Part shown: positions 4,952 to 22,097 of the stretch, in pieces
Layout of the letters: each line of letters begins with the position of its first letter
How positions within the stretch are numbered: position 1 is the first letter of the stretch
Assembly: GCA_016180965.1 (NCBI GenBank)
Contig: JACPAF010000001.1
Coordinates: 1-24,000, forward strand
Length of the DNA: 24,000 nt
Origin: Candidatus Aenigmatarchaeota archaeon
Lineage (GTDB): Archaea; Aenigmatarchaeota; Aenigmatarchaeia; JACPZZ01
Direction of reading: 5' to 3'
Program-made: the position numbers and the translations under genes
The notes under the pieces: generated by a model
What the model saw: only the letters and a program-made list of their open reading frames with translations
Told to the model about the DNA's origin: nothing
The model's database searches: none

Positions 4952-7384
4952 ATGATGAAAATGGAATTACAAAAAAGGTACGAACCGAAAGAATCGGAAA
5001 ATAAATGGCAAGTATATTGGCAGGAAAATAAAACTTACAACTTTGACCCGTCGGCCGAAAAAACTTTTGTAATAGACACGCCCCCGCCTTTCACTTCTGG
5101 CGTGCCGCACATGGGCCACGTTCTCTGGTGGACATGGAACGACATAATAGCCAGGTTCAAAAGAATGCAGGGTTTTTCGGTCCTCCTGCCTCAGGGATGG
5201 GACTGTCACGGGCTGCCGACAGAATTGAAAGTAGAAAAAGATTATAAAATAAGAAAAAACGAGAGGGAAAAATTTTTAACAGCATGCAAAGAATGGACCG
5301 GCGTATGCATATCCAGCATGAAAAAATACATGTCTTCGATAGGGTATTCGTCGGATTGGAATTACGAATACACTACAGACTCTCCGGAATACATCGGATT
5401 TGTACAAAAAACTTTGGTAAACCTTTTCGACAAAGGTTTAATTGAACGCGCCGAGCATCCGATAATGTGGTGCACCAAATGTTCGACCACGCTTGCGAAG
5501 GCTGAAGTCGGTTACGTTGAAAAGGACGGCGTCCTTTATTACATAAAACTTGAAGTTGAAGGCGGTAAGAAAATAACCATCGCAACAACGAGGCCGGAGA
5601 TGATGGCTGCGTGCGTTGCGATTTTCGTAAACCCTTCTGATGAAGAATATTCCGATTTCGTGGGTAAAACTGTAAAGATCCCGATTTTCGGGCAGGAAGT
5701 TAAAATTATCGCAAACCCGGACGTCGACATGGAATTCGGCACTGGTGTGGTTTATCTTTGCACATACGGGGACGAGATGGACATAAAATGGCAAAAAAGA
5801 TACGAGTTGCCGTCAATAAACCTGATAGACAATCATGGAAAATTAAATGAAAATGCAAAACATTTTGCGGGAATGAAAGTTGCGGATGCGCGGATAAAAA
5901 TAATTGAAGAACTGGGTATGCTCGGATTGATTGAGAAGGAAGATAAATTCAAGCACAATGTCTTGTGCCACACGGAACGCGCAGCATGTTTAAACCCCAT
6001 CGAATTCATACCGATGAAGCAATGGACCATAAAAGTCAAAGAGGCTTCGAAAGACGTTTTGAGACTGTCCAACGAGATCGGGTGGTTCCCGGAACACATG
6101 AAGATACGGCTTGACAACTGGGTAAGCTCGATGGACTGGGACTGGGTGTTTTCGAGGCAGCGCGTTTACGGGACGCCGATACCGTTCTGGTACTGCGACA
6201 AATGCGACAAGGTGTATCCGCCGGAAAACCTGCCCGTAGATACGTCATTGGAAAAATATAAAATGGAAAAATGCGAATGCGGCGGTTCAATTGTCGGCGA
6301 GAAGGACGTATGCGACGGCTGGATAGACTCTTCAATCACCCCGCTGATAATTTCAGGTTACTGGAAAAACGAAGCGCAACTTCACGAAAAGCTTTATCCG
6401 ACGGACTTGCGGCAGCAAGGGCATGACATAATAAGGACGTGGTCTTATTACACTATTCTCAGATGTTTCCTGGAAACCGGGGAGAAACCCTGGAAAAACA
6501 TACTCGTTAACAGTTTGATACTCGGGCCAGACGGCAGGGAGATGCACAAGTCGCTGGGCAATGTCGTATTGCCTGACGAAATATTGATGAAACACGGCGC
6601 GGACACGCTTCGGGCCGGGTTAGTAATGTTAGGTTTGTATTCAAGCGACGCCGCATTCAACTGGCAAAACATGGAATTTGCATACAAGTTTTCTACAAAA
6701 TTCTGGAATATATTCCGTTTTTTCACGTCTAACTTGGACGGGTTTGAAAAACAAACAGCCATAACAAACCCGATGGACAAATGGATAATTTCCAAATTAA
6801 ACAGGAAGATAGGAGAGATAACGAAAAACATAGAATCGTACCAGTTCGCTTATGCATTTGAGACTTTGCACGATTTCATATGGCACGAAGTCGCGGACAA
6901 TTACCTGGAGTTTGTAAAATACAGGCTTTACAACAATATCGAAAAAGAGTCGGCGCAGACGACGTTATACAATGTCATTTTCAGCTGCGTCAAGATGTTA
7001 TCGTTATTCATGCCCCACATAACCGAGGAGATGTACCAAGTTTATTTCAAACAGCTCGAAAAAAACGAAAGCGTGCATAAAACGGAATGGCCGGTTGTGG
7101 ATAAAAATTCGATGGACGAAGGGGTGGAACTTGCCGGTGAGTCTGCCAAACAAATAGTTTCGACGATAAGGAAATTCAAGACTTCAAACTCCATGCCGTT
7201 AAATGCGGAAATAAAACAGCTTATTATCCAATGCAAGGACGAGGACTTGGGCAAAGTCTCCAAAGTGTTAAAAGACGTCAGCGGCGCAATGAACGTCAAA
7301 GATGTAAGGTTGGGCACAATAATCGAGGGAAAAAATATCGTAGATATGGCTGACATGGGCGCGAAACTGTCTATTATTTTATAA
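4952..7384 (+). CDS. valS: valyl-tRNA synthetase
   Basis: Class Ia signatures: PPPFTSGVPHMGH (HIGH-type), TTRPE and GTGVVYLCTYGDEMD (editing domain), DWDWVFSRQRVYGTPIP, and EMHKSLGN (a KMSKS variant). The overall pattern matches archaeal ValRS as I remember it from Pyrococcus. Confidence 0.85.
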   Translation: MMKMELQKRYEPKESENKWQVYWQENKTYNFDPSAEKTFVIDTPPPFTSGVPHMGHVLWWTWNDIIARFKRMQGFSVLLPQGWDCHGLPTELKVEKDYKIRKNEREKFLTACKEWTGVCISSMKKYMSSIGYSSDWNYEYTTDSPEYIGFVQKTLVNLFDKGLIERAEHPIMWCTKCSTTLAKAEVGYVEKDGVLYYIKLEVEGGKKITIATTRPEMMAACVAIFVNPSDEEYSDFVGKTVKIPIFGQEVKIIANPDVDMEFGTGVVYLCTYGDEMDIKWQKRYELPSINLIDNHGKLNENAKHFAGMKVADARIKIIEELGMLGLIEKEDKFKHNVLCHTERAACLNPIEFIPMKQWTIKVKEASKDVLRLSNEIGWFPEHMKIRLDNWVSSMDWDWVFSRQRVYGTPIPFWYCDKCDKVYPPENLPVDTSLEKYKMEKCECGGSIVGEKDVCDGWIDSSITPLIISGYWKNEAQLHEKLYPTDLRQQGHDIIRTWSYYTILRCFLETGEKPWKNILVNSLILGPDGREMHKSLGNVVLPDEILMKHGADTLRAGLVMLGLYSSDAAFNWQNMEFAYKFSTKFWNIFRFFTSNLDGFEKQTAITNPMDKWIISKLNRKIGEITKNIESYQFAYAFETLHDFIWHEVADNYLEFVKYRLYNNIEKESAQTTLYNVIFSCVKMLSLFMPHITEEMYQVYFKQLEKNESVHKTEWPVVDKNSMDEGVELAGESAKQIVSTIRKFKTSNSMPLNAEIKQLIIQCKDEDLGKVSKVLKDVSGAMNVKDVRLGTIIEGKNIVDMADMGAKLSIIL

Positions 7385-7420
7385 CAAAAACCAATTCTTA
7401 GCAAATAGTGAGTGATTTTT

Positions 7421-8635
7421 ATGGTAAATGAAACCAAGATCGTCGAATTGAAAAAGCTGATACGCATACTCAAAAAAATCAGGGGGCGCCACACGGAACT
7501 GGTTACGGTTTACGTGCCTGCAGGCTACAATCTGATAGAAATTATAAACCAGCTCAAATCCGAAGGCTCGACGACGCAGAACATAAAATCCAAATCAACA
7601 CGAAACAACGTGCTTGATGCGCTAGATAAAATAATCCAGCACCTTAGACTTTATCGTGAAACGCCGGAGAACGGGCTCGCACTTTTCGCGGGAAACGTTT
7701 CAGAAACGGAGGGGGCGCAGAAACTTGATTTATGGGCAATTGAACCTCCGGAAAAAATGCAAAATAAATTGTACTGGTGCGACCAGCAATTTGTTGTCGA
7801 ACCTCTGGAAGAAATGGTCAAGGACAAAGAAGTTTACGGCCTGTTGGCTGTGGATAAATCCGAGGCTACCATAGGGTATTTGATCGGAAAAAAGATTGTC
7901 GTGTTCAAACATATTGAATCACTTGTGCCCGGGAAGACTGCAGCTGGCGGGTGGTCGCAAGCACGTTACGACAGGATACGAGCAGGCCTGTTAAATGATT
8001 TTTTAAAGGAAGTTTCTGACGCCGCGACTCAGGCATTCCTTGGCAAAAAAGAACTTATCGGCATAATTGTCGGCGGTCCGGGTCCCGTAAAGGATGATTT
8101 CGTCAAAGACGGCTACATGCACTATGAATTGCAGAAAAAAGTCGCGGGCGTCATTGACATATCTTACACAAACGAACCTGGGTTGCATGAACTCGTAAAC
8201 AGGGCGCAAAAAATACTGGTAAGCGCTGCGGTCACGAAGGAAATAGAATTAATGAAAATGTTTTTCACAGAACTTCAGAAGGATACAGGCCTGGGAATTT
8301 ACGGCTGGGTGAAAATTAAAGAAGCGCTGGAAAACGGAATGCTCCAAAAATTAATAATATCCGAGGATTTTGATTGGCTCCGTTCTAAGTTTAAATGCGG
8401 TAGTTGCGGCAATGAGGAGACAAGGGATTATAAACCGAATGATAAACAGCTGTGTTCAAAATGCAGGATGGAGATGCGTACAGTCAGCAGTGAAGACCTA
8501 ATCGACGTTGTAATTACAACTGCTGAAGATTTCAAAACCGAATACCACATTGTTTCGTCAAGCACCAGGGAAGGCGCGCAATTAAAAGAGCTTGGCGGGA
8601 TCGGCGGGATATTGAGGTACAAGACGAAATACTAG
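7421..8635 (+). CDS. prf1: peptide chain release factor aRF1 with a GGW variant of the GGQ motif
   Basis: NIKS (7580-7591), YxCxxxF (YWCDQQF), PGKTAAGGWSQARYDRIR at the GGQ position (GGW = 7946-7954), and a C-terminal CGSC...CSKC zinc-ribbon insert. ATG 7421 is preferred over the listed GTG 7412. Confidence 0.85.
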   Translation: MVNETKIVELKKLIRILKKIRGRHTELVTVYVPAGYNLIEIINQLKSEGSTTQNIKSKSTRNNVLDALDKIIQHLRLYRETPENGLALFAGNVSETEGAQKLDLWAIEPPEKMQNKLYWCDQQFVVEPLEEMVKDKEVYGLLAVDKSEATIGYLIGKKIVVFKHIESLVPGKTAAGGWSQARYDRIRAGLLNDFLKEVSDAATQAFLGKKELIGIIVGGPGPVKDDFVKDGYMHYELQKKVAGVIDISYTNEPGLHELVNRAQKILVSAAVTKEIELMKMFFTELQKDTGLGIYGWVKIKEALENGMLQKLIISEDFDWLRSKFKCGSCGNEETRDYKPNDKQLCSKCRMEMRTVSSEDLIDVVITTAEDFKTEYHIVSSSTREGAQLKELGGIGGILRYKTKY

Positions 8636-8932
8636 GGACGTGGAAACAGGTAAAATGGATCCCGCGAAGTGCACCGGACAAAAAAATCCGCATGCATGCC
8701 ACCGCCATCTTCCGTAACAAATGCGAAATTTCTATCCCCATCGATCCGAGCATTTCTACATGATCAGGCGCATCCACATACAGCGTATTGCCCTGGAATA
8801 TTTGCGCAAGCCCATTTCCAAAATTGTTTTAGCTTCGGCTATATCAGGAAACTTTTTGGTTTTGTAGCCCATGATACCAGAATACAGGCAACCTATTTAA
8901 AACATATCCTGCTGCCCAGTGTCAAATAAAAA

Positions 8933-9391
8933 TTATTTCCGTGTCAAATCCTCGACGTGGTCCGCGGCGTTTTTTAGCGCTATTGAAAAGCCCGGCTCCG
9001 ATCCCATTACCACGGTCTCTTTACCTTTTTTCTTCGCCTTTTGTATTATCGGCAGAAAGTCCGTGTCGCGTGAAACCATTACGATGACGTCTATGTCCCT
9101 GCTGTAGGAAGCTTCCATTATTTCTGCAGCCATGTAAACGTCGATATCCTGGTCCTTCTCAACGCCCAACGCTATCAAAGGCTCAAAACCTTGGCTCGAC
9201 ACGGCTTCAATTAATTTTTCGGATGCAAACTGGTTCAAGAAAACCTTCCCGTAAATCAAGCGGCCGTATTTTTTCGCGCGCTCTCGGACCTCCTTGAGGT
9301 CGATATTAAACTCTTTCCTTATCATGTTCGGGCCGTCTATGAATACGGCTACGTTTTTTCTGTTTCCCCGGAATATGCTTCCTAAAACCAA
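8933..9391 (-). CDS. NYN-domain (LabA/DUF88-type) predicted ribonuclease
   Basis: [10 protein letters not shown]..., [10 protein letters not shown] and [27 protein letters not shown] give the NYN acidic-residue pattern. The only in-frame start upstream of the domain is TTG at 9391-9389. Confidence 0.7.
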
Positions 9392-9464: not shown

Positions 9465-10247
9465 TTAAGCCGTTTTAATGTCATGTGCGTCTATCGGCAG
9501 GTTGAAAGCACGTATGGCGTTTTTGGTTGTGGCTTCGTCCGACTCTGCGATTTTTATACCTTTTTGCGACGCGATGCTTTCTACGACTAAACGCACATTC
9601 TTCGGCACATTATCTTGCCCGTGAACGGGGTTAAGAAAAGGCGAGTCCGTTTCCGTCAATAACAAATCCAAAGGCATTTGTTTTGCGATTCTTTTGTGCT
9701 TGTTTGAACGGACAATCAACGTAGGTATCGATGCGAACCATTTGTTTTCCGCCACACGCGCAGCGAAAAGCTCTGCCCCGAAACAATGCATAATGACTTT
9801 TTTTGCGTCGTTATTTTCCAAAATCACAATTGCTTCTCCGTTGTCCTCGCGTGAATGAATAACTAAAGGTTTGTTAAGCTCTTTAGCCAGCTCTATGAAT
9901 TGTACGAAAACGTCGCGGCATTTTTGGCGGTCCGGTTCATTTTTAACGTGAAAGTTGTCTATCCCGACTTCGCCTATTGCGATTATTTTTTCCGAGTTTG
10001 CTTTAATAAATTCTATATGGGAGTCGATTTGCCGCGCGCTAAGTTTGGGTATCTCCTCCGGGTGCAAACCTATACACGAAAAAATAAAATTTGGGTAATT
10101 CTCGGCCAGCTTGATCGATTTTTCCGAATCTCCTATGGATGGCGCGCTGTCAATAACTGCGTCCATAGATTTCATTGAATCTTTAACTATCTCACCGCGC
10201 CTGTTGTCAAAGTTTGAAAACGTCAGATGGCAATGCGCGTCTATCAT
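9465..10247 (-). CDS. tatD: TatD-family metal-dependent hydrolase/DNase
   Basis: MIDAHCHL at the N-terminus, plus the later GEVGID, HSRE, MHCF and TETDSPF motifs of the TatD family. Its ATG overlaps the upstream gene's TGA as ATGA (10244-10247). Confidence 0.85.
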   Translation of the reverse strand: MIDAHCHLTFSNFDNRRGEIVKDSMKSMDAVIDSAPSIGDSEKSIKLAENYPNFIFSCIGLHPEEIPKLSARQIDSHIEFIKANSEKIIAIGEVGIDNFHVKNEPDRQKCRDVFVQFIELAKELNKPLVIHSREDNGEAIVILENNDAKKVIMHCFGAELFAARVAENKWFASIPTLIVRSNKHKRIAKQMPLDLLLTETDSPFLNPVHGQDNVPKNVRLVVESIASQKGIKIAESDEATTKNAIRAFNLPIDAHDIKTA

Positions 10248-10855
10248 GCTGATAACCTCGAAACTATCACACGATAACCGCCGCTTTTTTTGACGTAATC
10301 CTGGTTACCGAAAACTTCCTTCATCCGTTTCGCTATAGATTTTGCGCCTTGTTTTGTTTGCACGACCAGGTACAGATAACCACCGGGAATCAAATGATCG
10401 ACGGCGCCTTCGATAATTTTGTTAACCACAATCCTCCCTGCCCGTATTGGGGGGTTGCAGATTATCTTGTCAAATTTCCCTGCTTCCAGTCCATCGTACA
10501 AGTCGCATTGTACAACTTCCACATTACGCAACCCGTTCAATTTTACGTTAATTTTCGCAAGCTCAACTGCACGTTCGTTTATGTCTGTCATCAATACGCT
10601 ATTGGCGTGTTTGGAAAAGGCAATCCCGATCACCCCGTAACCGCAGCCCAAGTCCAGAATTCTGTCACCTTTTGAAACGGCGATTGATTCTACTAAAAGC
10701 AATGTTCCTCGGTCGACTTTATACTTGGAAAATACACCGCTTGCGGTTGTGAACCTGTAATTTGTCCCGTTGATCAGGGCTGTTATTATCTGTGTGTATT
10801 TTTTCGAACTTGGCGATGCGCTGAAATAGTGTTCCACTCTAAAATTATCGTACAT
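10244..10855 (-). CDS. class I SAM-dependent methyltransferase (RsmC/MJ0882-like small-domain type)
   Basis: ILDLGCGYGVIG (motif I) and CNPPIRAG (an NPPY-type motif IV). The size and layout match the archaeal MJ0882-like family. Confidence 0.7.
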   Translation of the reverse strand: MYDNFRVEHYFSASPSSKKYTQIITALINGTNYRFTTASGVFSKYKVDRGTLLLVESIAVSKGDRILDLGCGYGVIGIAFSKHANSVLMTDINERAVELAKINVKLNGLRNVEVVQCDLYDGLEAGKFDKIICNPPIRAGRIVVNKIIEGAVDHLIPGGYLYLVVQTKQGAKSIAKRMKEVFGNQDYVKKSGGYRVIVSRLSA

Positions 10856-10879: not shown

Positions 10880-13800
10880 ATGCATATGTCCGGCTGGTCC
10901 GCGGGAATTATTTCGTTCTTAATCATCCTTATTATAACCCCTGCACTGCTGTTGTCAAATGTGTCGGCCAACGAAAAAACCTCCAATGGAGAAAAAGAAA
11001 GCCAAAAGGGCGTATTCGCTCCCGGTTCCGGTGTCACTGCGCGGATACTACCTATAAAATCTGAATATTCGACTGCTCCTTCAAATACACCCGGCAGAAC
11101 ACAAAAACCAGTTGTTTTGTCGCAACAGGCCGCATGGGACGAAAACGATGAATATCACCACAGGTCGCACGCGCAATCCGTAATAGAGGCGAACAAAAAC
11201 CTTCTCGGAATAGGCGAAGAGAATATACGGCTTGTCAGCGGCAATTACGATGGTCCTTCTTATGCGAACCACAATTCGGGCACTTCTTATGTATTTTACG
11301 AGCAGATGCACAACGGCATTCCGATTTACGGCAGCTACATAGGCTTGATTTCGGTCAACGGCGAAGATGTGCTGATAAAATCCAACGTTTATCCCGGCAT
11401 TTCCGTTGGAACGGAACCATCGATAAACGCGGATGATGCTGTAAAACTTGCACAAACAAACCTAGGAACGGACTCCGATCCGCTAAATTATTCCCTGATG
11501 ATATTCCCCGTAAATTATGAAAAAAACGACTATGTACTGGCGTGGAAGATCCAGTTTTCAACGCTACATCCGCCGGCCGCATGGGAAATTTTTGTCGACG
11601 CCCAAAAAAGAAAAGTTATTTTCAAGCAAAACAGGATATTGGACTTATCAGTGTCCGGCAATGTTATAGGTTTCGTCTACCCTGAAAATCCCTCAAGGCC
11701 AAAGGCCGTGGTAAACTTTTCCGGATTGAATGTAAGCGCTTTCCAAAACGGCAAAATTGTCGGGTCTTCAATAACAAATGCAAACGGGTCGTATAATATT
11801 ACCGGCGTTTCAGGCGATGTATACGTAATTTCAGAATTGAACGGTCCGTTCGTAAACGTAATTAATGAGGACCAATCAAAGGCTAACCACAGCCTACTTG
11901 TAAGTACGCCTTCTGTCCATAACTGGAATTGGAGCGCCAATGACACGTCATACAAACAGGAAGAATCGAATGTTTTCTACCATGTCAACCGCATACACGA
12001 TTTCATAACAAAAGGCAGCCCGTTCGACATATCCCAGATGAATTACCAGGTTCCCGCCAATGTCGAATACGGATCGTCTTCGTGCAACGCATTCGCAGAT
12101 CCGAATGCGGGATCAATAAACTTTTTCGGCCCGGACGGGGGTTGCGAGGCGACTTCGCTGGGAAGCGACGTGATTTACCATGAATACACCCACTTGGTCA
12201 TTGACAAAGTCATGAACATCTTAGACCCGTCTCCCGATGAGAACGGAGGATCGATCCACGAGGGTGTAGCGGATTATTTCTCGGCCACATTAAGAAATGA
12301 TTCTGTGATAGGAAACGAAATTTTGCCAGAATCATCAATAAGATACCTTAACAACAGCCTGAAGATGCCGGAAGATTTCAGTGAGGAGGTCCATGACGAC
12401 GGCAGGATAATTGCCGGCGCTTTGTGGGATCTTAGAGGATTGTTAGGCAACAGCACAGCGGATAACCTTACAATACGGACAATGAAACTACGGGGGCAGA
12501 CATTCACACAGTTCCTCGCCGACATGTTCATTGCCGACGACAACAATGGAAACCTTGCAGACGGAACTCCTCACACAAGCGAAATTTGCAGGGCTTTCTA
12601 CGTCAACCATGGAATATTCAATTCATACTGCCCCGTCACACCTATCTACGGAAAACCGGGAGACAAAATATATTTGCTGGAGAACAACACACCGACGATT
12701 ATCAACGATTATCCGCTACCGGGCAATTCCAGTTCCATAACCGTTCCAAACCAATTGTCCGGTAATGTTAGCAACATCTCAGTGTTCGTGGGAATAAATC
12801 ACACATACATAGGCGATTTGAAAATACAGCTCCAATCGCCTTCCGGAAAGTCCATATTTCTCCATTACCTCACAGGAGGCCCTACAAATAATTTGTTCAC
12901 GTGGTACGGCAACGAAACGGTTCCAAAAACACCGGAGGGGTTGCATCAATTTCTTAACGAGCCTGCCAATGGAACTTGGCTGCTGAAAGTTGCAGATCAC
13001 GCCGAAGTGGATACGGGCACAATAACAAAATGGAAGCTATTAATTACGGTGAATATGCTCACACCGCGATGGTCTCTGAATAATTCCTACCTGCATGAAA
13101 CTTATGAAGCAAAACAAAATTACAGTTTCAAGATCGCCTGGAACGATACGGAAGGCGACGGCCCGTCAGCAATATCGCAAGCGGTTTTCGAGCTCAACTC
13201 CATGAATTATACCAAATACACCTCGCCTGCCGTGGCCAACGATTCCCAGGGAATTTTTTGGATAAACTTGACTGACCTGTCCGCTGGTTTGTATTCGTAC
13301 AAATGGTACGCCAACAACACTCTCGGTATGTGGAACTCCACAGCATCACTCCAGTTTTCGGTACACAAGCAGCCGACAAACACGACACTCTTGCTTAACA
13401 GCACACCAGGCGATTTCGCATACAACATTTCAACGTTTGCGAATTTCACAGCTTTTGTAAACGTGACCGGAAAAAACGTGACCCTGACCTCTGATATTCC
13501 GGGATGGCTGGACCAGAACGCCACCGACAAATTATACAACACTACACTGCTGGTTAAAAAAGGCGCATACAACATAACCGCATATTTTGCCGGCGACCAG
13601 AATTATTCCGAATCCTTACAAACCCATTTCGCCATAATAAAAAATACGCAAGCGCCGTTAATTTTGGGCAATTTCAGCCTGCCAGAAAGCGGCGCGGATT
13701 ACAATCCAACCAGAAATTATACGTTTAACGTGACCGCAGAAGATGATATTGGAATAGAAAACGTAATATTTCAATTCGACCTGTTGAATTACACGGCGTC

Positions 13801-15445
13801 CGTTTATTCAACTGGGTCTGCGCCACCCTTGAAATCCGGAAACTGGTCGGTCACGCTGCACGGCTTGGGCGCCAATGAATCCGGCCACAAACTAATCTGG
13901 TACGTAAACGATTCGTACGATAACTGGAACAGGACCGGAGAAATTAATTACGCGATAAAGAAAAACACTTCCGCGTACACAATAATAAGATTAAATAAAA
14001 CTCCTTCCGATGACAGCGAAACATTCGATTTCGAAGTCGGCGAACCTTTTTACATATACGTTTCAGCATCGGACCCGGCGATAACATTCAACATATATGA
14101 AAATTTATCCACCCCGGACACGCCAGAACTTGCAATTTCCCAGAATGGGATCCTTGAAGCCGATACCTACATATCTTCCGCGGGCGGTTATCATGTTTGG
14201 ATAAACTCTTCTGAAAATGAAAATTATACTGCAAACAACACGCTTTCGCACATCTTCATCAGGTCTAAAGACACCATTACTCCCAGATTAACAGAGTCGA
14301 TAATAGCACCAAGATCCATCAAAAGAAATTCAAACGTGACTTTCATGACAATCTCGGAAGATTACAGCGACACAAACGCATCCGTCAACATATACAATAA
14401 AACCAACCCAAGCTCGATGCGTGTATACATGGGCCAAATAACTTGGAAAGGCAATACGCTAACAAACCTGATAACTTTCAATTCTTCAATACTAGAAACG
14501 GGCACATTTTATGTAAACGTATCGCTTACGGACGCAAGCGGAAATTCTGCAAACTATTCCATCGGGAATATTACGGTATCAGATTCTGTGGGGTCAAACT
14601 ATTACAGCAACACGTACCTGCCAATCGAGGAAAAAATAGAACTCAATCTTTCTTCGGAGTTGAACATATCACTTAACATAAGTTCAAGTTCTTCAGGATC
14701 CACGGACTCTCTTGTCGTATCTTCTTACAATACAAATCCCTCCAATGATAACACAAATGGTGTTGCAATAAACAAGTTTTCGGAAATATCCGCGGGAGGT
14801 TTCCTATCAGATGTGTTAAACTGGGTTGAGATGAGAATATTTTATTCCTCTTCTGATATACCGGCGGGCTATGACGAGAACAATTTAAGAATCTATTACA
14901 ACCATCCCAACGGAACTTGGCTGCCGTATGAAGGTTCCGGTTCGGGCGGTGTTAATACAACCGAAAAATATGTTTGGGCAAATTCCACGCATTTCAGTAT
15001 TTACGGTGTTTTCGTGATGCCAACATGCAGCGACGGCATACAAAACCAAGACGAAAGCGGGGCAGATTGCGGCGGAACATGTTCGGCGTGCGCGTCTTCG
15101 GCTCCTCACATAAGCGGCGGAGGGGGTGGCGGAGGCGGATCTTCTATAACCACGACGACAACTACGACCACATCAACAACCACAACTGCTGCGACTGTTT
15201 CGGTCAAAAAAAATAATGAAACCGCAATTCCAAACATTACACAACCCGATTCAAAGGCGACTAACTCCACAAAAAACCAGGCTAACCTGAACAACAGCAT
15301 TACAGGTGCGGTTACATCCAGAACAAACAGCTATCTGGCCCCGATAGCAGTAATAGGATTGGCTTTAATCGCAATAATTGCATTCAAAAAATTAATCGGC
15401 CATAAAAAACCAAAATCCGCTGGGAAAAAATTAAAATTTAAATAA
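10880..15445 (+). CDS. large surface-anchored zinc metalloprotease (fungalysin M36/thermolysin-like) with a proprotein-convertase P-domain and a sequon-rich repeat region
   Basis: N-terminal signal peptide (IISFLIILIITPALLLSNVSA). FTP/PepSY-like propeptide (YEQMHNGIPIYGSY...). FYHVNRIHDF...NAFADP...HEYTH (12179-12193) with a downstream HEGVADYFSA. P-domain (about 12737-13051; NHTYIGDLKIQLQSPSGK...GTWLLKVADHAEVDTGTITKWKL). Then about 600 aa dense in N-x-S/T. Cys module CSDGIQNQDESGADCGGTCSAC, a Gly8 run, a Thr-rich linker, and a C-terminal TM segment with a basic tail. Confidence 0.75.
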   Translation: MHMSGWSAGIISFLIILIITPALLLSNVSANEKTSNGEKESQKGVFAPGSGVTARILPIKSEYSTAPSNTPGRTQKPVVLSQQAAWDENDEYHHRSHAQSVIEANKNLLGIGEENIRLVSGNYDGPSYANHNSGTSYVFYEQMHNGIPIYGSYIGLISVNGEDVLIKSNVYPGISVGTEPSINADDAVKLAQTNLGTDSDPLNYSLMIFPVNYEKNDYVLAWKIQFSTLHPPAAWEIFVDAQKRKVIFKQNRILDLSVSGNVIGFVYPENPSRPKAVVNFSGLNVSAFQNGKIVGSSITNANGSYNITGVSGDVYVISELNGPFVNVINEDQSKANHSLLVSTPSVHNWNWSANDTSYKQEESNVFYHVNRIHDFITKGSPFDISQMNYQVPANVEYGSSSCNAFADPNAGSINFFGPDGGCEATSLGSDVIYHEYTHLVIDKVMNILDPSPDENGGSIHEGVADYFSATLRNDSVIGNEILPESSIRYLNNSLKMPEDFSEEVHDDGRIIAGALWDLRGLLGNSTADNLTIRTMKLRGQTFTQFLADMFIADDNNGNLADGTPHTSEICRAFYVNHGIFNSYCPVTPIYGKPGDKIYLLENNTPTIINDYPLPGNSSSITVPNQLSGNVSNISVFVGINHTYIGDLKIQLQSPSGKSIFLHYLTGGPTNNLFTWYGNETVPKTPEGLHQFLNEPANGTWLLKVADHAEVDTGTITKWKLLITVNMLTPRWSLNNSYLHETYEAKQNYSFKIAWNDTEGDGPSAISQAVFELNSMNYTKYTSPAVANDSQGIFWINLTDLSAGLYSYKWYANNTLGMWNSTASLQFSVHKQPTNTTLLLNSTPGDFAYNISTFANFTAFVNVTGKNVTLTSDIPGWLDQNATDKLYNTTLLVKKGAYNITAYFAGDQNYSESLQTHFAIIKNTQAPLILGNFSLPESGADYNPTRNYTFNVTAEDDIGIENVIFQFDLLNYTASVYSTGSAPPLKSGNWSVTLHGLGANESGHKLIWYVNDSYDNWNRTGEINYAIKKNTSAYTIIRLNKTPSDDSETFDFEVGEPFYIYVSASDPAITFNIYENLSTPDTPELAISQNGILEADTYISSAGGYHVWINSSENENYTANNTLSHIFIRSKDTITPRLTESIIAPRSIKRNSNVTFMTISEDYSDTNASVNIYNKTNPSSMRVYMGQITWKGNTLTNLITFNSSILETGTFYVNVSLTDASGNSANYSIGNITVSDSVGSNYYSNTYLPIEEKIELNLSSELNISLNISSSSSGSTDSLVVSSYNTNPSNDNTNGVAINKFSEISAGGFLSDVLNWVEMRIFYSSSDIPAGYDENNLRIYYNHPNGTWLPYEGSGSGGVNTTEKYVWANSTHFSIYGVFVMPTCSDGIQNQDESGADCGGTCSACASSAPHISGGGGGGGGSSITTTTTTTTSTTTTAATVSVKKNNETAIPNITQPDSKATNSTKNQANLNNSITGAVTSRTNSYLAPIAVIGLALIAIIAFKKLIGHKKPKSAGKKLKFK

Positions 15446-16482: not shown

Positions 16483-16579
16483 GGGCCCATAGCTCAGCCT
16501 GGTAGAGCACCTGACTCTTAATTGAACTTTTGTTCATCGAGATATCAGGGAGTCGCGAGTTCAAATCTCGCTGGGCCCA
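16483..16579 (+). tRNA. tRNA-Lys (anticodon CTT) with a 23-nt intron at the canonical 37/38 position (16521-16543)
   Basis: GGGCCCA-TA-GCTC-AGCCTGGTA-GAGC-A-CCTGA-CTCTTA[attgaacttttgttcatcgagat]A-TCAGG-GAGTC-GCGAG-TTCAAAT-CTCGC-TGGGCCC-A. The intron has an internal tgaac/gttca helix, and its gag pairs with C32-U33-C34, giving a relaxed bulge-helix-bulge. Confidence 0.85.
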
Positions 16580-16596: not shown

Positions 16597-17514
16597 ATGA
16601 TCTCCATAAACTACACGTTCCTGGGCGATGAATCAATTGTTAAGGAATGGGGCAAGAAAGGAACTTCATCGGATATAACGATCTACGACCGCAAAGACAC
16701 GGGCATTGTTAAAACATGGACACTGCCTACCGGATTTCCGGACAAAATACAATCTTTATTCCAAGCCATACAGCTTGGCGAATATGTTATTTTTCATGTA
16801 TCCAAATTGGACAAGTTCACGGGCGAGCAAATAATCGCGCTTGATGCTTTGCGAAAGGAAAAAGGTTTGTTGTGCCATTCTTACGAAGTTGATAGAAGCC
16901 TGCTGTTAACAATGATAAAAGGAACTGTTGTTGAGAATTACAAGCTGGTGGAACTTGAGAATTTGAAAACGGAAATGGATTCGCTGGCTGCTATTCAAAA
17001 AGAAGGCGAGGCTAAAGTTGTGATAGACCATTCGTTCGAAGTTAAAGGCGTTGGCGCTGTGCTTCTGGGTAAATTGGACCGCGGAAAAATAAAAACTTAC
17101 GACAATATGAAATTGTTGCCCGCGGGTTCCGAAGTAATGATAAAATCAATACAAATGCACGACGATACCGTAACGGAAGCATCGTCTCCAGCGCGCATTG
17201 GGTTAGCGATCAAAGGTGTTGATGCAAGCGCTGTACAGCGCGGCGACGTTTTATGCAATTCTGCAGATTCCAAAGTTTCACAAGAAATAATTTTGGATTA
17301 CAAACAAAACAAATATTTTAAAGAGGATGTTAAAGAAGGCCAAACTTTCGTAGTTAATGTCGGAATGCAAATGAAGACCGCGAAAATAATTTCATCGGCT
17401 CCCATGAGGTTACAATTCATGAAACCGGTTGTTTTTGAAATCGGCGAAATTGCCGTAATATTAAGGCCGGAATCGCAGGGCGTTAGGATTGTCGGAAGTG
17501 GAAAGATAAGTTAA
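16597..17514 (+). CDS. EF-Tu/SelB-like protein with a degenerate G domain (no P-loop) and an intact beta-barrel domain II
   Basis: Domain II is clear: VIDHSFEVKGVGAVLLGKLDRGKIKTYDNMKLLPAGSEVMIKSIQMHDDTVTEASSPARIGLAIKGVDASAVQRGDVL. The N-terminal region keeps only vestiges of the G motifs (SDITIY, LPTGF, SKLD) and has no GxxxxGK[ST]. Confidence 0.65.
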   Translation: MISINYTFLGDESIVKEWGKKGTSSDITIYDRKDTGIVKTWTLPTGFPDKIQSLFQAIQLGEYVIFHVSKLDKFTGEQIIALDALRKEKGLLCHSYEVDRSLLLTMIKGTVVENYKLVELENLKTEMDSLAAIQKEGEAKVVIDHSFEVKGVGAVLLGKLDRGKIKTYDNMKLLPAGSEVMIKSIQMHDDTVTEASSPARIGLAIKGVDASAVQRGDVLCNSADSKVSQEIILDYKQNKYFKEDVKEGQTFVVNVGMQMKTAKIISSAPMRLQFMKPVVFEIGEIAVILRPESQGVRIVGSGKIS

Positions 17515-21877: not shown

Positions 21878-21926
21878 ATAACCTTGTCTGTTTAAGAAAA
21901 GGTTAATCAAAATATATACAATCGGT

Positions 21927-22053
21927 GCCTGGGTGGCTCAGTGGTAGAGCGCCAGAAATTTGGCGAAACTCATAAGGCGATGTATGAGTGTTGAGCTTAT
22001 GCTATGATAACTAAGACATCTGGAAGTCGTGAGTTCGATCCTCACCCCAGGCA
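21927..22053 (+). tRNA. tRNA with anticodon CAT (elongator Met, or Ile2 if C34 is modified) and two apparent introns: 12 nt at 30/31 (21956-21967) and 43 nt at 37/38 (21975-22017)
   Basis: GCCTGGG-TG-GCTC-AGTGGTA-GAGC-G-CCAG[aaatttggcgaa]A-CTCATA[aggcgatg...ctaagac]A-TCTGG-AAGTC-GTGAG-TTCGATC-CTCAC-CCCAGGC-A. The exons reconstitute a body very like archaeal elongator tRNA-Met. No single-intron model gives a U33-containing 7-nt anticodon loop. Confidence 0.7.
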
Positions 22054-22097
22054 ATCCAAATAATTTAGTTTAATAAAAACCAAACTCAAGTGTTTTT

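What the first reader, a model, noticed from the sequence alone, without database searches (positions are those of the whole stretch)
7946..7954. aRF1 with intact stop-codon-reading motifs but GGW in place of the universal catalytic GGQ
In the sequence, the release-factor gene carries NIKS (7580-7591) and YxCxxxF (YWCDQQF). At the position where archaeal and eukaryotic RF1 read PGK..GGQS..R(F/Y).R, it reads PGKTAAGG-W-SQARYDRIR, with TGG at 7952-7954. No GGQ occurs anywhere else in the protein.

From established knowledge, Gly-Gly-Gln is conserved across bacterial RF1/RF2, eRF1 and aRF1, and the Gln sits in the peptidyl-transferase centre during hydrolysis. Going from CAA or CAG to TGG needs at least two substitutions, so a single base-call error is unlikely.

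Genes in this window end in TAA, TAG and TGA, so nothing here suggests stop-codon reassignment.

By inference there are three possibilities:
- The lineage terminates translation with a Trp-containing motif.
- A second canonical aRF1 exists elsewhere, and this copy is a non-hydrolysing stop-codon binder with a rescue, stalling or regulatory role.
- The gene is decaying.
Basis: partly seen in the sequence, partly recalled or inferred. Interest (0 to 1): 0.8.

Follow-up and report, generated by a model that had tools for sequence, protein, structure and literature searches.

The report
Archaeal release factor with Trp replacing catalytic Gln
The gene for the protein that ends translation in this DPANN archaeon really does carry Gly-Gly-Trp where all studied release factors carry the "universal" Gly-Gly-Gln, and more than a hundred related archaeal lineages conserve the same change, so the glutamine seems not to be indispensable in nature.

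Summary
ORF 7421-8635 (+) is a full-length aRF1 (TIGR03676: 459.7 bits, cutoff 234.7). Its GGC-GGG-TGG at 7946-7954 aligns with the GGQ of solved aRF1 and eRF1 structures.

It is not an error or a decaying gene:
- An independent assembly is 100% identical over 1,790 bp.
- Among 354 aRF1 homologues with a readable motif, 158 carry GG[W/M/F/Y]. These include nearly all proteins at least ~48% identical to this one, and 16 species-representative genomes (codons TGG or ATG).

The gene sits in the same ValRS → aRF1 ← NYN ← TatD slot as canonical GGQ aRF1 in related Aenigmatarchaeota and other DPANN genomes. It is therefore the positional orthologue, not an extra paralogue. No second aRF1 was seen in any non-Q genome, but that search was not exhaustive.

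The change is coordinated: GGQ-S-[A/S]-x-R-F versus GG[W/M/F/Y]-S-Q-x-R-Y. The two states switched at least 7 times.

Best reading: a working release factor with an alternative catalytic loop. Inferred, not shown: backbone-driven hydrolysis, a hydrophobic residue in the pocket of methyl-Gln, and possibly a Gln moved two residues downstream (GGxSQ, as in VLRF1).

I found no paper describing this. Biochemical activity, single-copy status and Mtq2 loss remain untested.

The parts
7421..8635 (+). aRF1 gene (404 aa, stop TAG). An alternative GTG start at 7412 would give 407 aa.
   Evidence: TIGR03676 aRF1_eRF1 scores 459.7 bits against a cutoff of 234.7. Pfam finds eRF1_1, eRF1_2 and eRF1_3. The AF2 model has pLDDT 86.6 and its best PDB matches are aRF1/eRF1.
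7454..7819 (+). N domain (stop-codon recognition), residues 12-133
   Evidence: Pfam eRF1_1, 57.4 bits.
7580..7591 (+). NIKS motif (residues 54-57)
   Evidence: Read directly from the sequence. N54, K56 and S57 are invariant in the 23-sequence alignment.
7772..7792 (+). YxCxxxF motif (YWCDQQF, residues 118-124)
   Evidence: Read directly from the sequence. Y118, C120 and F124 are invariant.
7835..8218 (+). M domain (peptidyl-tRNA hydrolysis domain), residues 139-266
   Evidence: Pfam eRF1_2, 118.7 bits.
7946..7954 (+). GGW (GGC GGG TGG; G176 G177 W178) in the column of the universal GGQ
   Evidence: (aligned to the GGQ of 4af1, 3agk and 4crn). In the AF2 model it lies in the loop 167-179, just before helix 180-206.
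7955..7969 (+). S179-Q180-A181-R182-Y183. The +2 Gln and +5 Tyr co-vary with the non-Gln state. Together with GGW they make a GGxSQ loop.
   Evidence: +2 is Q in 129/158 non-Q proteins against 21/196 GGQ proteins. +5 is Y in 139/158 against 39/196.
8234..8623 (+). C domain, residues 272-401, with a CxxC...CxxC insertion (C326, C329, C345, C348; nt 8396-8464)
   Evidence: Pfam eRF1_3, 83.7 bits. C326, C345 and C348 are invariant.
4952..7384 (+). Valyl-tRNA synthetase gene immediately upstream (conserved neighbour of aRF1)
   Evidence: tblastn finds ValRS ending just before aRF1 in GGQ loci (L014-17, 20, 25, 27, 31-33, 36, 41, 42, 44, 51, 56, 57, 61, 65, 77, 79) and in GGM loci (L021, L028, L070).
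8933..9391 (-). NYN-domain gene (TIGR00288) immediately downstream, convergent (conserved neighbour)
   Evidence: The same gene lies downstream of GGQ aRF1 in L003, L005, L027, L031, L037, L040, L041, L052 and L060.
9465..10247 (-). TatD-family gene (conserved neighbour)
   Evidence: It lies downstream of aRF1 in GGQ loci (L014-16, 20, 25, 27, 31, 32, 42, 52) and in GGM loci (L021, L024, L070).

Best explanation
This is the organism's ordinary, working class-I release factor: the positional orthologue of canonical aRF1 in an Aenigmatarchaeota (DPANN) genome. Its catalytic loop has moved to an alternative, conserved state, GG[W/M/F/Y]-S-Q-x-R-Y, in place of GGQ-S-[A/S]-x-R-F.

Shown:
- The substitution is real and lineage-wide.
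- It is maintained by selection.
- It is coordinated with two nearby positions.
- It has arisen or been exchanged repeatedly.
- It sits in the ancestral aRF1 locus.
- All stop-codon-reading motifs are intact, and all three stop codons are in use.

Inferred mechanism:
- Stop codons are read by the unchanged N domain.
- The two invariant glycines still place the backbone NH of residue 178 next to the peptidyl-tRNA ester. That backbone group, not the Gln side chain, is thought to drive hydrolysis.
- The bulky hydrophobic side chain (Trp here; Met, Phe or Tyr in sister lineages) fills the peptidyl-transferase-centre pocket that N5-methyl-Gln normally packs into. This would make the Mtq2 methylation step unnecessary.
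- Gln180, two residues downstream, gives a GGxSQ loop like that of VLRF1-type relatives. It may supply the side-chain amide that helps to position water.
For: Identity:
- aRF1 equivalog score 459.7 against a cutoff of 234.7, with three eRF1 domains.
- The AF2 model matches aRF1/eRF1, with TM 0.82 to eRF1 in 5lzt.
- The GGW/GGQ column assignment is supported.

Reality:
- An independent assembly is identical.
- TGG or ATG occupies this codon in 16 GTDB species genomes.

Conservation:
- Of the 120 closest homologues (48-100% identity), 119 are non-Q: GGW, GGM, GGF or GGY.
- Of the 354 homologues scored, 158 are W/M/F/Y, 196 are Q and 5 carry another residue (A, E or S).
- NIKS, YxCxxxF, GG, S179 and R182 are invariant.

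Orthology: ValRS → aRF1 ← NYN ← TatD synteny is shared by the window (GGW), by GGM loci and by many GGQ DPANN loci. The GGQ loci include the complete Aenigmatarchaeota chromosome CP066684.

No second copy seen:
- No assembly appears twice among 80 loci that include 16 non-Q genomes.
- No GGQ protein lies on a contig of the same length as the non-Q contigs of 1,105,251, 555,152 or 316,182 bp.

Coordinated loop change: +2 Q in 82% against 11%, and +5 Y in 88% against 20%. Every Q/non-Q switch in the DPANN superclade flips both.

Recurrence:
- 7-12 state changes by parsimony on bootstrapped NJ trees.
- Separate GGW/GGF forms lie near Thermoplasmata, Woesearchaeota and Nanohaloarchaeota sequences.

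Stop-codon usage is alike in GGW, GGM and GGQ lineages.

Literature:
- The Gln backbone amide catalyses hydrolysis (PMC6742477).
- The Gln side chain has a packing role, and its N5-methyl group packs on U2506/A2451/A2452 (PMC5799190).
[quoted passage not shown] This is known only from the title of Seit-Nebi et al. 2000, in the reference list of PMC12440015.
- GGxSQ is the loop of aVLRF1/acVLRF1 (PMC6514570).
Against: - No activity data exist.
- GGQ is called universally conserved, and the yeast Q182E variant could not be propagated even beside a wild-type copy (PMC12440015). A non-Gln residue could therefore be expected to be harmful.
- No complete non-Q genome was scanned.
- 27 non-Q proteins have Ala at +2 (mostly GGWSAN), and 7 have no Gln or Asn at +2 or +3. 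The relocated-Gln idea therefore cannot be the whole story.
- Loss of Mtq2 in non-Q lineages is untested: the Mtq2 search was too insensitive.
- The AF2 loop is of low confidence (pLDDT about 58) and says nothing about ribosome contacts.
Confidence: 0.75

Rival explanations
1. Non-hydrolysing stop-codon binder. The GGW protein recognises stop codons but cannot release the peptide. It would act in stalling, rescue or regulation, while a separate canonical GGQ aRF1 elsewhere in the genome terminates translation.
For: - GGQ is regarded as universal and essential (PMC5799190 and PMC6144793).
- Catalytically dead relatives such as Pelota exist.
- MAGs labelled Aenigmarchaeota include both GGQ and GGW aRF1 proteins. 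Without whole genomes, co-occurrence cannot be strictly excluded.
Against: - The GGW gene sits in the ancestral ValRS-aRF1-NYN-TatD slot that holds the GGQ gene in relatives.
- GGQ and non-Q forms interleave on the tree at short distances, rather than forming two parallel paralogue clades.
- None of the 16 non-Q species genomes shows a second locus among the 80 kept, although Aenigmatarchaeota GGQ genes of similar identity were recovered from other genomes.
- No GGQ protein shares a contig length with any large non-Q contig.
- There is no rate acceleration: the protein scores about twice the equivalog cutoff.
Confidence: 0.1
2. Split-first termination. The GGW aRF1 is the only aRF1 but does not hydrolyse. 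It recognises the stop codon and, with ABCE1, splits the ribosome. The peptidyl-tRNA left on the large subunit is then cleaved by another enzyme, such as a VLRF1-type factor or peptidyl-tRNA hydrolase.
For: - From my own knowledge, not tested here: hydrolysis-defective eRF1 together with ABCE1/Rli1 can still promote subunit dissociation in vitro.
- VLRF1-type factors act on large-subunit-bound peptidyl-tRNA (PMC6514570).
Against: - GG, S179, R182 and the whole M-domain loop are strictly conserved. The compensatory pattern at +2/+5 argues that the loop still works in the peptidyl-transferase centre.
- Routing every protein through a rescue pathway would be costly for organisms with reduced genomes.
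- No such partner gene is present in the window.
Confidence: 0.05
3. Sequencing or assembly error, or a decaying gene.
For: None beyond the rarity of the motif.
Against: - An independent assembly is identical.
- The ORF is intact, with all domains.
- The same residue occurs in more than 100 diverged homologues, and TGG occurs in 12 other genomes.
Confidence: 0.01

Closest known systems
Canonical archaeal aRF1 / eukaryotic eRF1 (TIGR03676; structures 4af1, 3agk, 1dt9, 5lzt)
   Same: - Same three-domain fold and length.
- NIKS and YxCxxxF decoding motifs.
- A Gly-Gly pair at the tip of the M domain, followed by S-x-x-R-[F/Y]-x-R.
- The C-domain zinc-ribbon insertion.
- The same genomic slot next to ValRS.
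   Different: - The Gln of GGQ is Trp, or Met, Phe or Tyr in sister lineages.
- +2 is Gln instead of Ala/Ser, and +5 is Tyr instead of Phe.
- The residue that Mtq2 methylates in Haloferax aRF1 (PMC6144793) does not exist here.
VLRF1-type release-factor relatives (aVLRF1/acVLRF1; Vms1/ANKZF1 clade)
   Same: Same superfamily M-domain fold. The catalytic loop is described as GGxSQ (PMC6514570), which GGWSQ fits exactly. The Pfam acVLRF1 model matches residues 142-266 at 55 bits.
   Different: VLRF1 proteins lack the NIKS/YxCxxxF codon-reading domain and act in rescue on large subunits. This protein scores far higher as aRF1, and falls below the NCBIfam acVLRF1 cutoff (52.2 against 125).
Pelota/Dom34
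   Same: A paralogous three-domain A-site factor that lacks the catalytic Gln.
   Different: Pelota has an Sm-like N domain, no NIKS or YxCxxxF, and a poorly conserved loop. This protein scores 66 bits against the Pelota cutoff of 177.65 and keeps GG plus the whole loop.
Laboratory Gln substitutions in RF1/RF2/eRF1
   Same: A single-residue replacement of the GGQ Gln. Partial activity has been reported for human eRF1 mutants. This rests on the title of Seit-Nebi et al. 2000 (reference list of PMC12440015) and, from my own knowledge, on Shaw & Green 2007, which the library does not hold.
   Different: Those are engineered, generally impaired variants in a GGQ-adapted background. Here the replacement is natural, fixed, conserved over deep divergence and accompanied by co-varying changes.

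Membership tests
aRF1/eRF1 class-I release factor | Three domains: eRF1_1, eRF1_2, eRF1_3 | tested here: met
   Pfam scores are 57.4, 118.7 and 83.7 bits, all above cutoff. The AF2 model matches aRF1/eRF1 structures.
aRF1/eRF1 class-I release factor | Whole-protein score above the curated equivalog cutoff (TIGR03676) | tested here: met
   459.7 bits against a cutoff of 234.7, covering model positions 2-403 of 403.
aRF1/eRF1 class-I release factor | Stop-codon-reading motifs NIKS and YxCxxxF | tested here: met
   NIKS at residues 54-57 and YWCDQQF at 118-124. Key residues are invariant in the alignment.
aRF1/eRF1 class-I release factor | Gly-Gly-Gln tripeptide at the tip of the M domain | tested here: not met
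   The protein has GGW at 176-178, aligned to the GGQ of 4af1, 3agk and 4crn. No GGQ occurs elsewhere in it.
aRF1/eRF1 class-I release factor | Orthology with canonical aRF1 (same genomic slot) | tested here: met
   ValRS upstream and NYN/TatD downstream, as in many GGQ DPANN loci.
aRF1/eRF1 class-I release factor | Only aRF1 in the genome | tested here: inconclusive
   No second copy was found in 16 non-Q genomes among the 80 loci kept, or on large non-Q contigs.
aRF1/eRF1 class-I release factor | Stop-codon-dependent peptidyl-tRNA hydrolysis on the ribosome | not testable with these tools
   This needs a release assay with the recombinant factor.
aRF1/eRF1 class-I release factor | N5-methylation of the GGQ Gln by Mtq2 (shown for Haloferax aRF1, PMC6144793) | not testable with these tools
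   - The target Gln is absent.
- The window holds no Mtq2. Its MTS-type methyltransferase is an MJ0882 homologue with NPPI, scoring 69.6 against the HemK2/MTQ2 cutoff of 87.
- A GGQ relative does have HemK2/MTQ2 6 kb from aRF1 (L003, 195 bits).
- Genome-wide presence in non-Q lineages could not be determined.
VLRF1 family (aVLRF1/acVLRF1) | GGxSQ catalytic loop | tested here: met
   G176-G177-W178-S179-Q180 fits the pattern. The pattern is as described in PMC6514570.
VLRF1 family (aVLRF1/acVLRF1) | Family-level score and an architecture without the codon-reading N domain | tested here: not met
   NF041024 scores 52.2 against a cutoff of 125. Pfam acVLRF1 scores 55 bits against 118.7 for eRF1_2. 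An N domain with NIKS is present.
Pelota/Dom34 | Family score above cutoff; Sm-like N domain; no decoding motifs | tested here: not met
   TIGR00111 scores 66.2 against a cutoff of 177.65, and matches only the M and C domains.

The most novel reading that the evidence does not exclude
A large branch of DPANN archaea terminates all translation with a release factor that lacks the 'universal' catalytic glutamine. Archaeal RF1 would then have two interchangeable catalytic-loop states: GGQ-S-A/S-x-R-F, and GG[W/M/F/Y]-S-Q-x-R-Y. Lineages have switched between them repeatedly. The three co-varying residues lie within six codons of a homing-intein insertion point. The states may therefore be carried between lineages by co-conversion during intein homing. 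The hydrophobic state would make Mtq2 methylation of the release factor dispensable.
Probability: 0.3. Interest if true: 0.92.

Novelty: new variant of a known kind. Interest (0 to 1): 0.82.

Why it matters
The Gln of GGQ is the textbook example of a residue conserved in all class-I release factors of all three domains. Bacterial and archaeo-eukaryotic factors even reached it convergently, and each evolved a dedicated methyltransferase for it. Its exact chemical role is still debated: water coordination, exclusion of larger nucleophiles, or packing.

A natural, selected replacement by Trp, Met, Phe or Tyr in more than a hundred lineages, with identifiable compensating changes, is a ready-made experiment for that question:
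- It predicts which second-site changes (+2 Gln, +5 Tyr) allow the Gln to be lost.
- It predicts that Mtq2 is dispensable in those lineages.
- It offers release-factor variants that could be useful for engineering termination.

It also shows that annotation or 'catalytically dead' calls based only on the presence of GGQ would misclassify the main release factor of a whole archaeal group.

Tried and rejected
1. **Sequencing error.** Rejected. The Logan contig L001 is identical, and relatives share TGG.

2. **Register error.** Rejected. Three PDB alignments and a 23-sequence alignment agree, and there is no other GGQ.

3. **The nearby MTS methyltransferase (10244-10855) as a degenerate Mtq2.** Rejected. 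It is an MJ0882 homologue (196 bits to 1dus) with NPPI, and falls below the HemK2/MTQ2 cutoff.

4. **Testing Mtq2 loss, using the Mtq2 of a GGQ relative as query.** Inconclusive.
   - Only 539 candidates were scored.
   - Hits on the same contigs as aRF1 were found only for the P0271 clade.
   - Nothing was found for other GGQ or GGW contigs.

5. **Looking for a second aRF1 by matching contig lengths across the two homologue lists and the genome scan.** None was found, but the lists are capped at 120 and 80.

6. **Gene conversion around the motif (sliding-window similarity).**
   - GGQ proteins nested in the GGW clade lose their extra similarity to that clade only around residues ~165-240.
   - About half of that drop is the motif residues themselves.
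   - Suggestive only.

7. **Intein phylogeny against host state.** Intein nearest neighbours mostly follow the host clade. One GGF-host intein (P0164) is closest to GGQ-host inteins. This gives no clear support for transfer between states.

8. **Stop-codon reassignment.** Rejected. All three stops are used at similar frequencies in GGW, GGM and GGQ loci.

9. **Literature.** Eight full-text searches and two reference checks found no paper describing a non-Gln aRF1 or aRF1 inteins. Shaw & Green 2007 is not held.
Full report
**The gene and the observation**

ORF 7421-8635 (+) encodes a 404-aa protein; an alternative GTG start lies at 7412. It has the three eRF1 domains (Pfam eRF1_1/2/3). It scores 459.7 bits on the NCBIfam equivalog model for aRF1, whose cutoff is 234.7.

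The DNA at 7946-7954 is GGC GGG TGG. phmmer against all PDB chains aligns ...PGKTAAGGWSQARYDRIR... with the GGQ of Halobacterium aRF1 (4af1), Aeropyrum aRF1 (3agk) and yeast eRF1 (4crn), residue for residue. NIKS (7580-7591) and YWCDQQF (7772-7792) are present, and there is no GGQ anywhere else in the protein.

**Not an artefact**

- A Logan assembly of run SRR12113431 gives a 1,790-bp contig that is identical to window 7200-8989.
- The protein is on record at NCBI as aRF-1 of a 'Candidatus Aenigmarchaeota archaeon', on a 316-kb contig.
- Other Trp codons in the gene fall in columns that are Trp in most or many aligned homologues (W105 in most, W119 in about half), so TGG is decoded normally.

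**How widespread it is**

- Of the 120 closest homologues in a 5.8-billion-protein collection (48-100% identity), 119 lack Gln at this column. Most have GGW, a coherent subgroup has GGM, and a few have GGF or GGY.
- An exhaustive HMMER search of 1.84 billion cluster representatives shows GGQ taking over only among more distant aRF1 proteins.
- Over the 354 homologues with a readable motif, 158 are W/M/F/Y, 196 are Q and 5 carry another residue.
- In a scan of one genome per GTDB species, the 80 best loci included 12 GGW (all TGG), 4 GGM (all ATG) and 64 GGQ. Records titled 'Candidatus Aenigmatarchaeota archaeon' fall in all three classes.
- Trp has a single codon. Its retention across proteins only ~50% identical overall is therefore strong evidence of selection on this residue.

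**Orthologue or extra paralogue?**

In the window the gene order is ValRS (4952-7384, +), aRF1 (+), NYN (8933-9391, -), TatD (9465-10247, -). tblastn of these neighbours against the fetched loci gives three results:
- ValRS ends just upstream of aRF1 in more than 20 GGQ loci from Aenigmatarchaeota, Woesearchaeota, Pacearchaeota and others. These include the complete chromosome CP066684.
- The same arrangement is found in three GGM loci.
- NYN and/or TatD lie downstream, on the opposite strand, in many of the same loci.

The GGW gene therefore occupies the ancestral aRF1 slot.

On NJ trees built with the motif masked, GGQ and non-Q proteins do not form two parallel clades. A mostly non-Q clade of 155 sequences sits inside GGQ DPANN lineages, and itself contains small GGQ groups.

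No assembly appears twice among the 80 loci. No GGQ protein in either 120-protein list lies on a contig with the length of any large non-Q contig (1,105,251, 555,152 or 316,182 bp and others). These negatives are limited by list caps and by the lack of a complete non-Q genome. Single-copy status is therefore likely but not proven.

**A coordinated change of the catalytic loop**

The residue at the Q column co-varies with two nearby positions.

| Position | Non-Q proteins | GGQ proteins |
|---|---|---|
| +2 is Gln | 129/158 | 21/196 |
| +5 is Tyr | 139/158 | 39/196 |
| Gln or Asn at +2 or +3 | 151/158 | 87/196 |

Within the DPANN superclade, all five GGQ groups (83 sequences) have Ala or Ser at +2. 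Every switch between Q and non-Q flips +2 and +5 together.

Parsimony on 60 bootstrapped NJ trees needs 7-12 Q/non-Q changes in 277 sequences. Separate GGW or GGF proteins are most similar to Thermoplasmata, Woesearchaeota and Nanohaloarchaeota sequences, and all of them carry Ser-Gln after the motif.

The window protein's G-G-W-S-Q fits the GGxSQ loop that Burroughs and Aravind describe for aVLRF1/acVLRF1 members of the same superfamily (PMC6514570).

**Mechanism: what is shown and what is inferred**

Shown:
- The decoding motifs are intact.
- G176, G177, S179 and R182 are invariant.
- The fold is normal: AF2 pLDDT 86.6, TM 0.82 to eRF1 in 5lzt.
- All three stop codons are used at similar frequencies in GGW, GGM and GGQ loci.

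From the literature:
- The backbone amide of the Gln is held to catalyse hydrolysis (PMC6742477).
- The side chain has a packing role, and its N5-methyl group makes van der Waals contacts with U2506, A2451 and A2452 (PMC5799190).
- Mtq2 methylates this Gln in Haloferax aRF1, and its loss slows growth (PMC6144793).
[quoted passage not shown] This rests on the title of Seit-Nebi et al. 2000, cited in PMC12440015.

Inference: in the non-Q state the glycines still present the backbone NH of residue 178. A large hydrophobic side chain fills the pocket used by methyl-Gln without needing methylation. Gln180 may provide the amide that helps to order the water. The 27 proteins with Ala at +2 show that the relocated Gln cannot be the full explanation.

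**Mtq2**

The window's small methyltransferase (10244-10855) is an MJ0882 homologue, not Mtq2. A GGQ relative (P0271, locus L003) has a bona fide HemK2/MTQ2 gene 6 kb from aRF1. A search with that protein found Mtq2 on the same contigs as GGQ aRF1 in that clade only. It was too insensitive to say anything about non-Q genomes. Co-loss of Mtq2 is a prediction, not a result.

**Inteins**

Fifty-five homologues carry an insertion exactly between GG[Q/W/M/F/S] and the following Ser. Each begins with Cys and ends with His-Asn. They match Pfam Intein_splicing, and the larger ones also match LAGLIDADG_3.

This codon boundary is thus a homing-intein site, and all three co-varying residues lie within six codons of it. 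Whether co-conversion during homing spreads the loop states is an open idea. Two quick tests were only suggestive.

**Novelty**

Eight full-text searches found no paper that reports a non-Gln aRF1, or an aRF1 intein. Current papers call the motif universally conserved. The library lacks most subscription journals, so prior description cannot be excluded.

I rate this a new variant of a known kind. It is a member of the aRF1 family by every test except the GGQ tripeptide itself.

**Verdict**

- The most likely explanation is a functional release factor with an alternative catalytic loop (confidence about 0.75).
- A non-hydrolysing paralogue (about 0.1) and split-first termination (about 0.05) remain possible.
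- Error or decay is excluded.

Noticed in passing
Related proteins P0121-P0266 (e.g. P0121 residues 178-311, P0123 180-686); the equivalent point in the window lies between 7954 and 7955: A homing intein is inserted exactly between GG[Q/W/M/F/S] and the following Ser in 55 aRF1 homologues. Each starts with Cys, ends with His-Asn and has Ser at +1. They match Pfam Intein_splicing, with LAGLIDADG_3 and HTH_3 in the large ones; the mini-inteins are 130-150 aa. The window gene has no intein. I found no paper on this.
   Followed up: partly
window 10244-10855 (-): A 203-aa MTS-type methyltransferase homologous to MJ0882 (PDB 1dus, 196 bits), with NPPI instead of the NPPY of Gln methyltransferases. 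It is not Mtq2. By contrast, a GGQ-type relative (L003 3183-3785) has a true HemK2/MTQ2 gene 6 kb from its aRF1.
   Followed up: yes
window 16597-17514 (+): A 305-aa protein whose only recognisable part is EF-Tu domain 2, i.e. the middle of SelB/EF1-alpha (TIGR00475 76.8 bits, far below cutoff). It looks like a translational-GTPase paralogue without a detectable G domain, about 8 kb from aRF1.
   Followed up: no
window 16483-16579 (+) and 21926-22054 (+): Two intron-containing tRNA genes. One is tRNA-Lys(CTT) with a 23-nt intron. The other has a 53-nt intron at a non-canonical position; default ARAGORN missed it, and Rfam and ARAGORN -i found it.
   Followed up: partly
window 8633-8635: TAG is used as a stop only once among 19 window ORFs, and that one use ends the aRF1 gene itself. 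Across 14 GGW loci, TAG makes up 22% of stops, so it is not avoided.
   Followed up: yes
window 10880-15445 (+): A 1,521-aa ORF whose only Pfam match is a single proprotein-convertase P domain (residues 631-720). The rest is uncharacterised.
   Followed up: no
Related proteins P0245, P0270 (GGE); P0262, P0265 (GGA); P0219 (GGS): Rare aRF1-like proteins carry Glu, Ala or Ser at the Gln column. GGE (P0245, P0270) and one GGA (P0265) sit on long branches; P0262 and P0219 were not placed in the tree. GGE and GGA are closest to Bathyarchaeia and Thermoplasmata sequences. They may be divergent paralogues rather than main release factors.
   Followed up: no
Loci L023, L029, L034, L038: MAGs titled Thermococcus sp. 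or Thermococcaceae carry GGQ aRF1 genes 47-50% identical to this DPANN protein. That is higher than expected for Thermococcales, and may reflect binning contamination or mislabelling.
   Followed up: no
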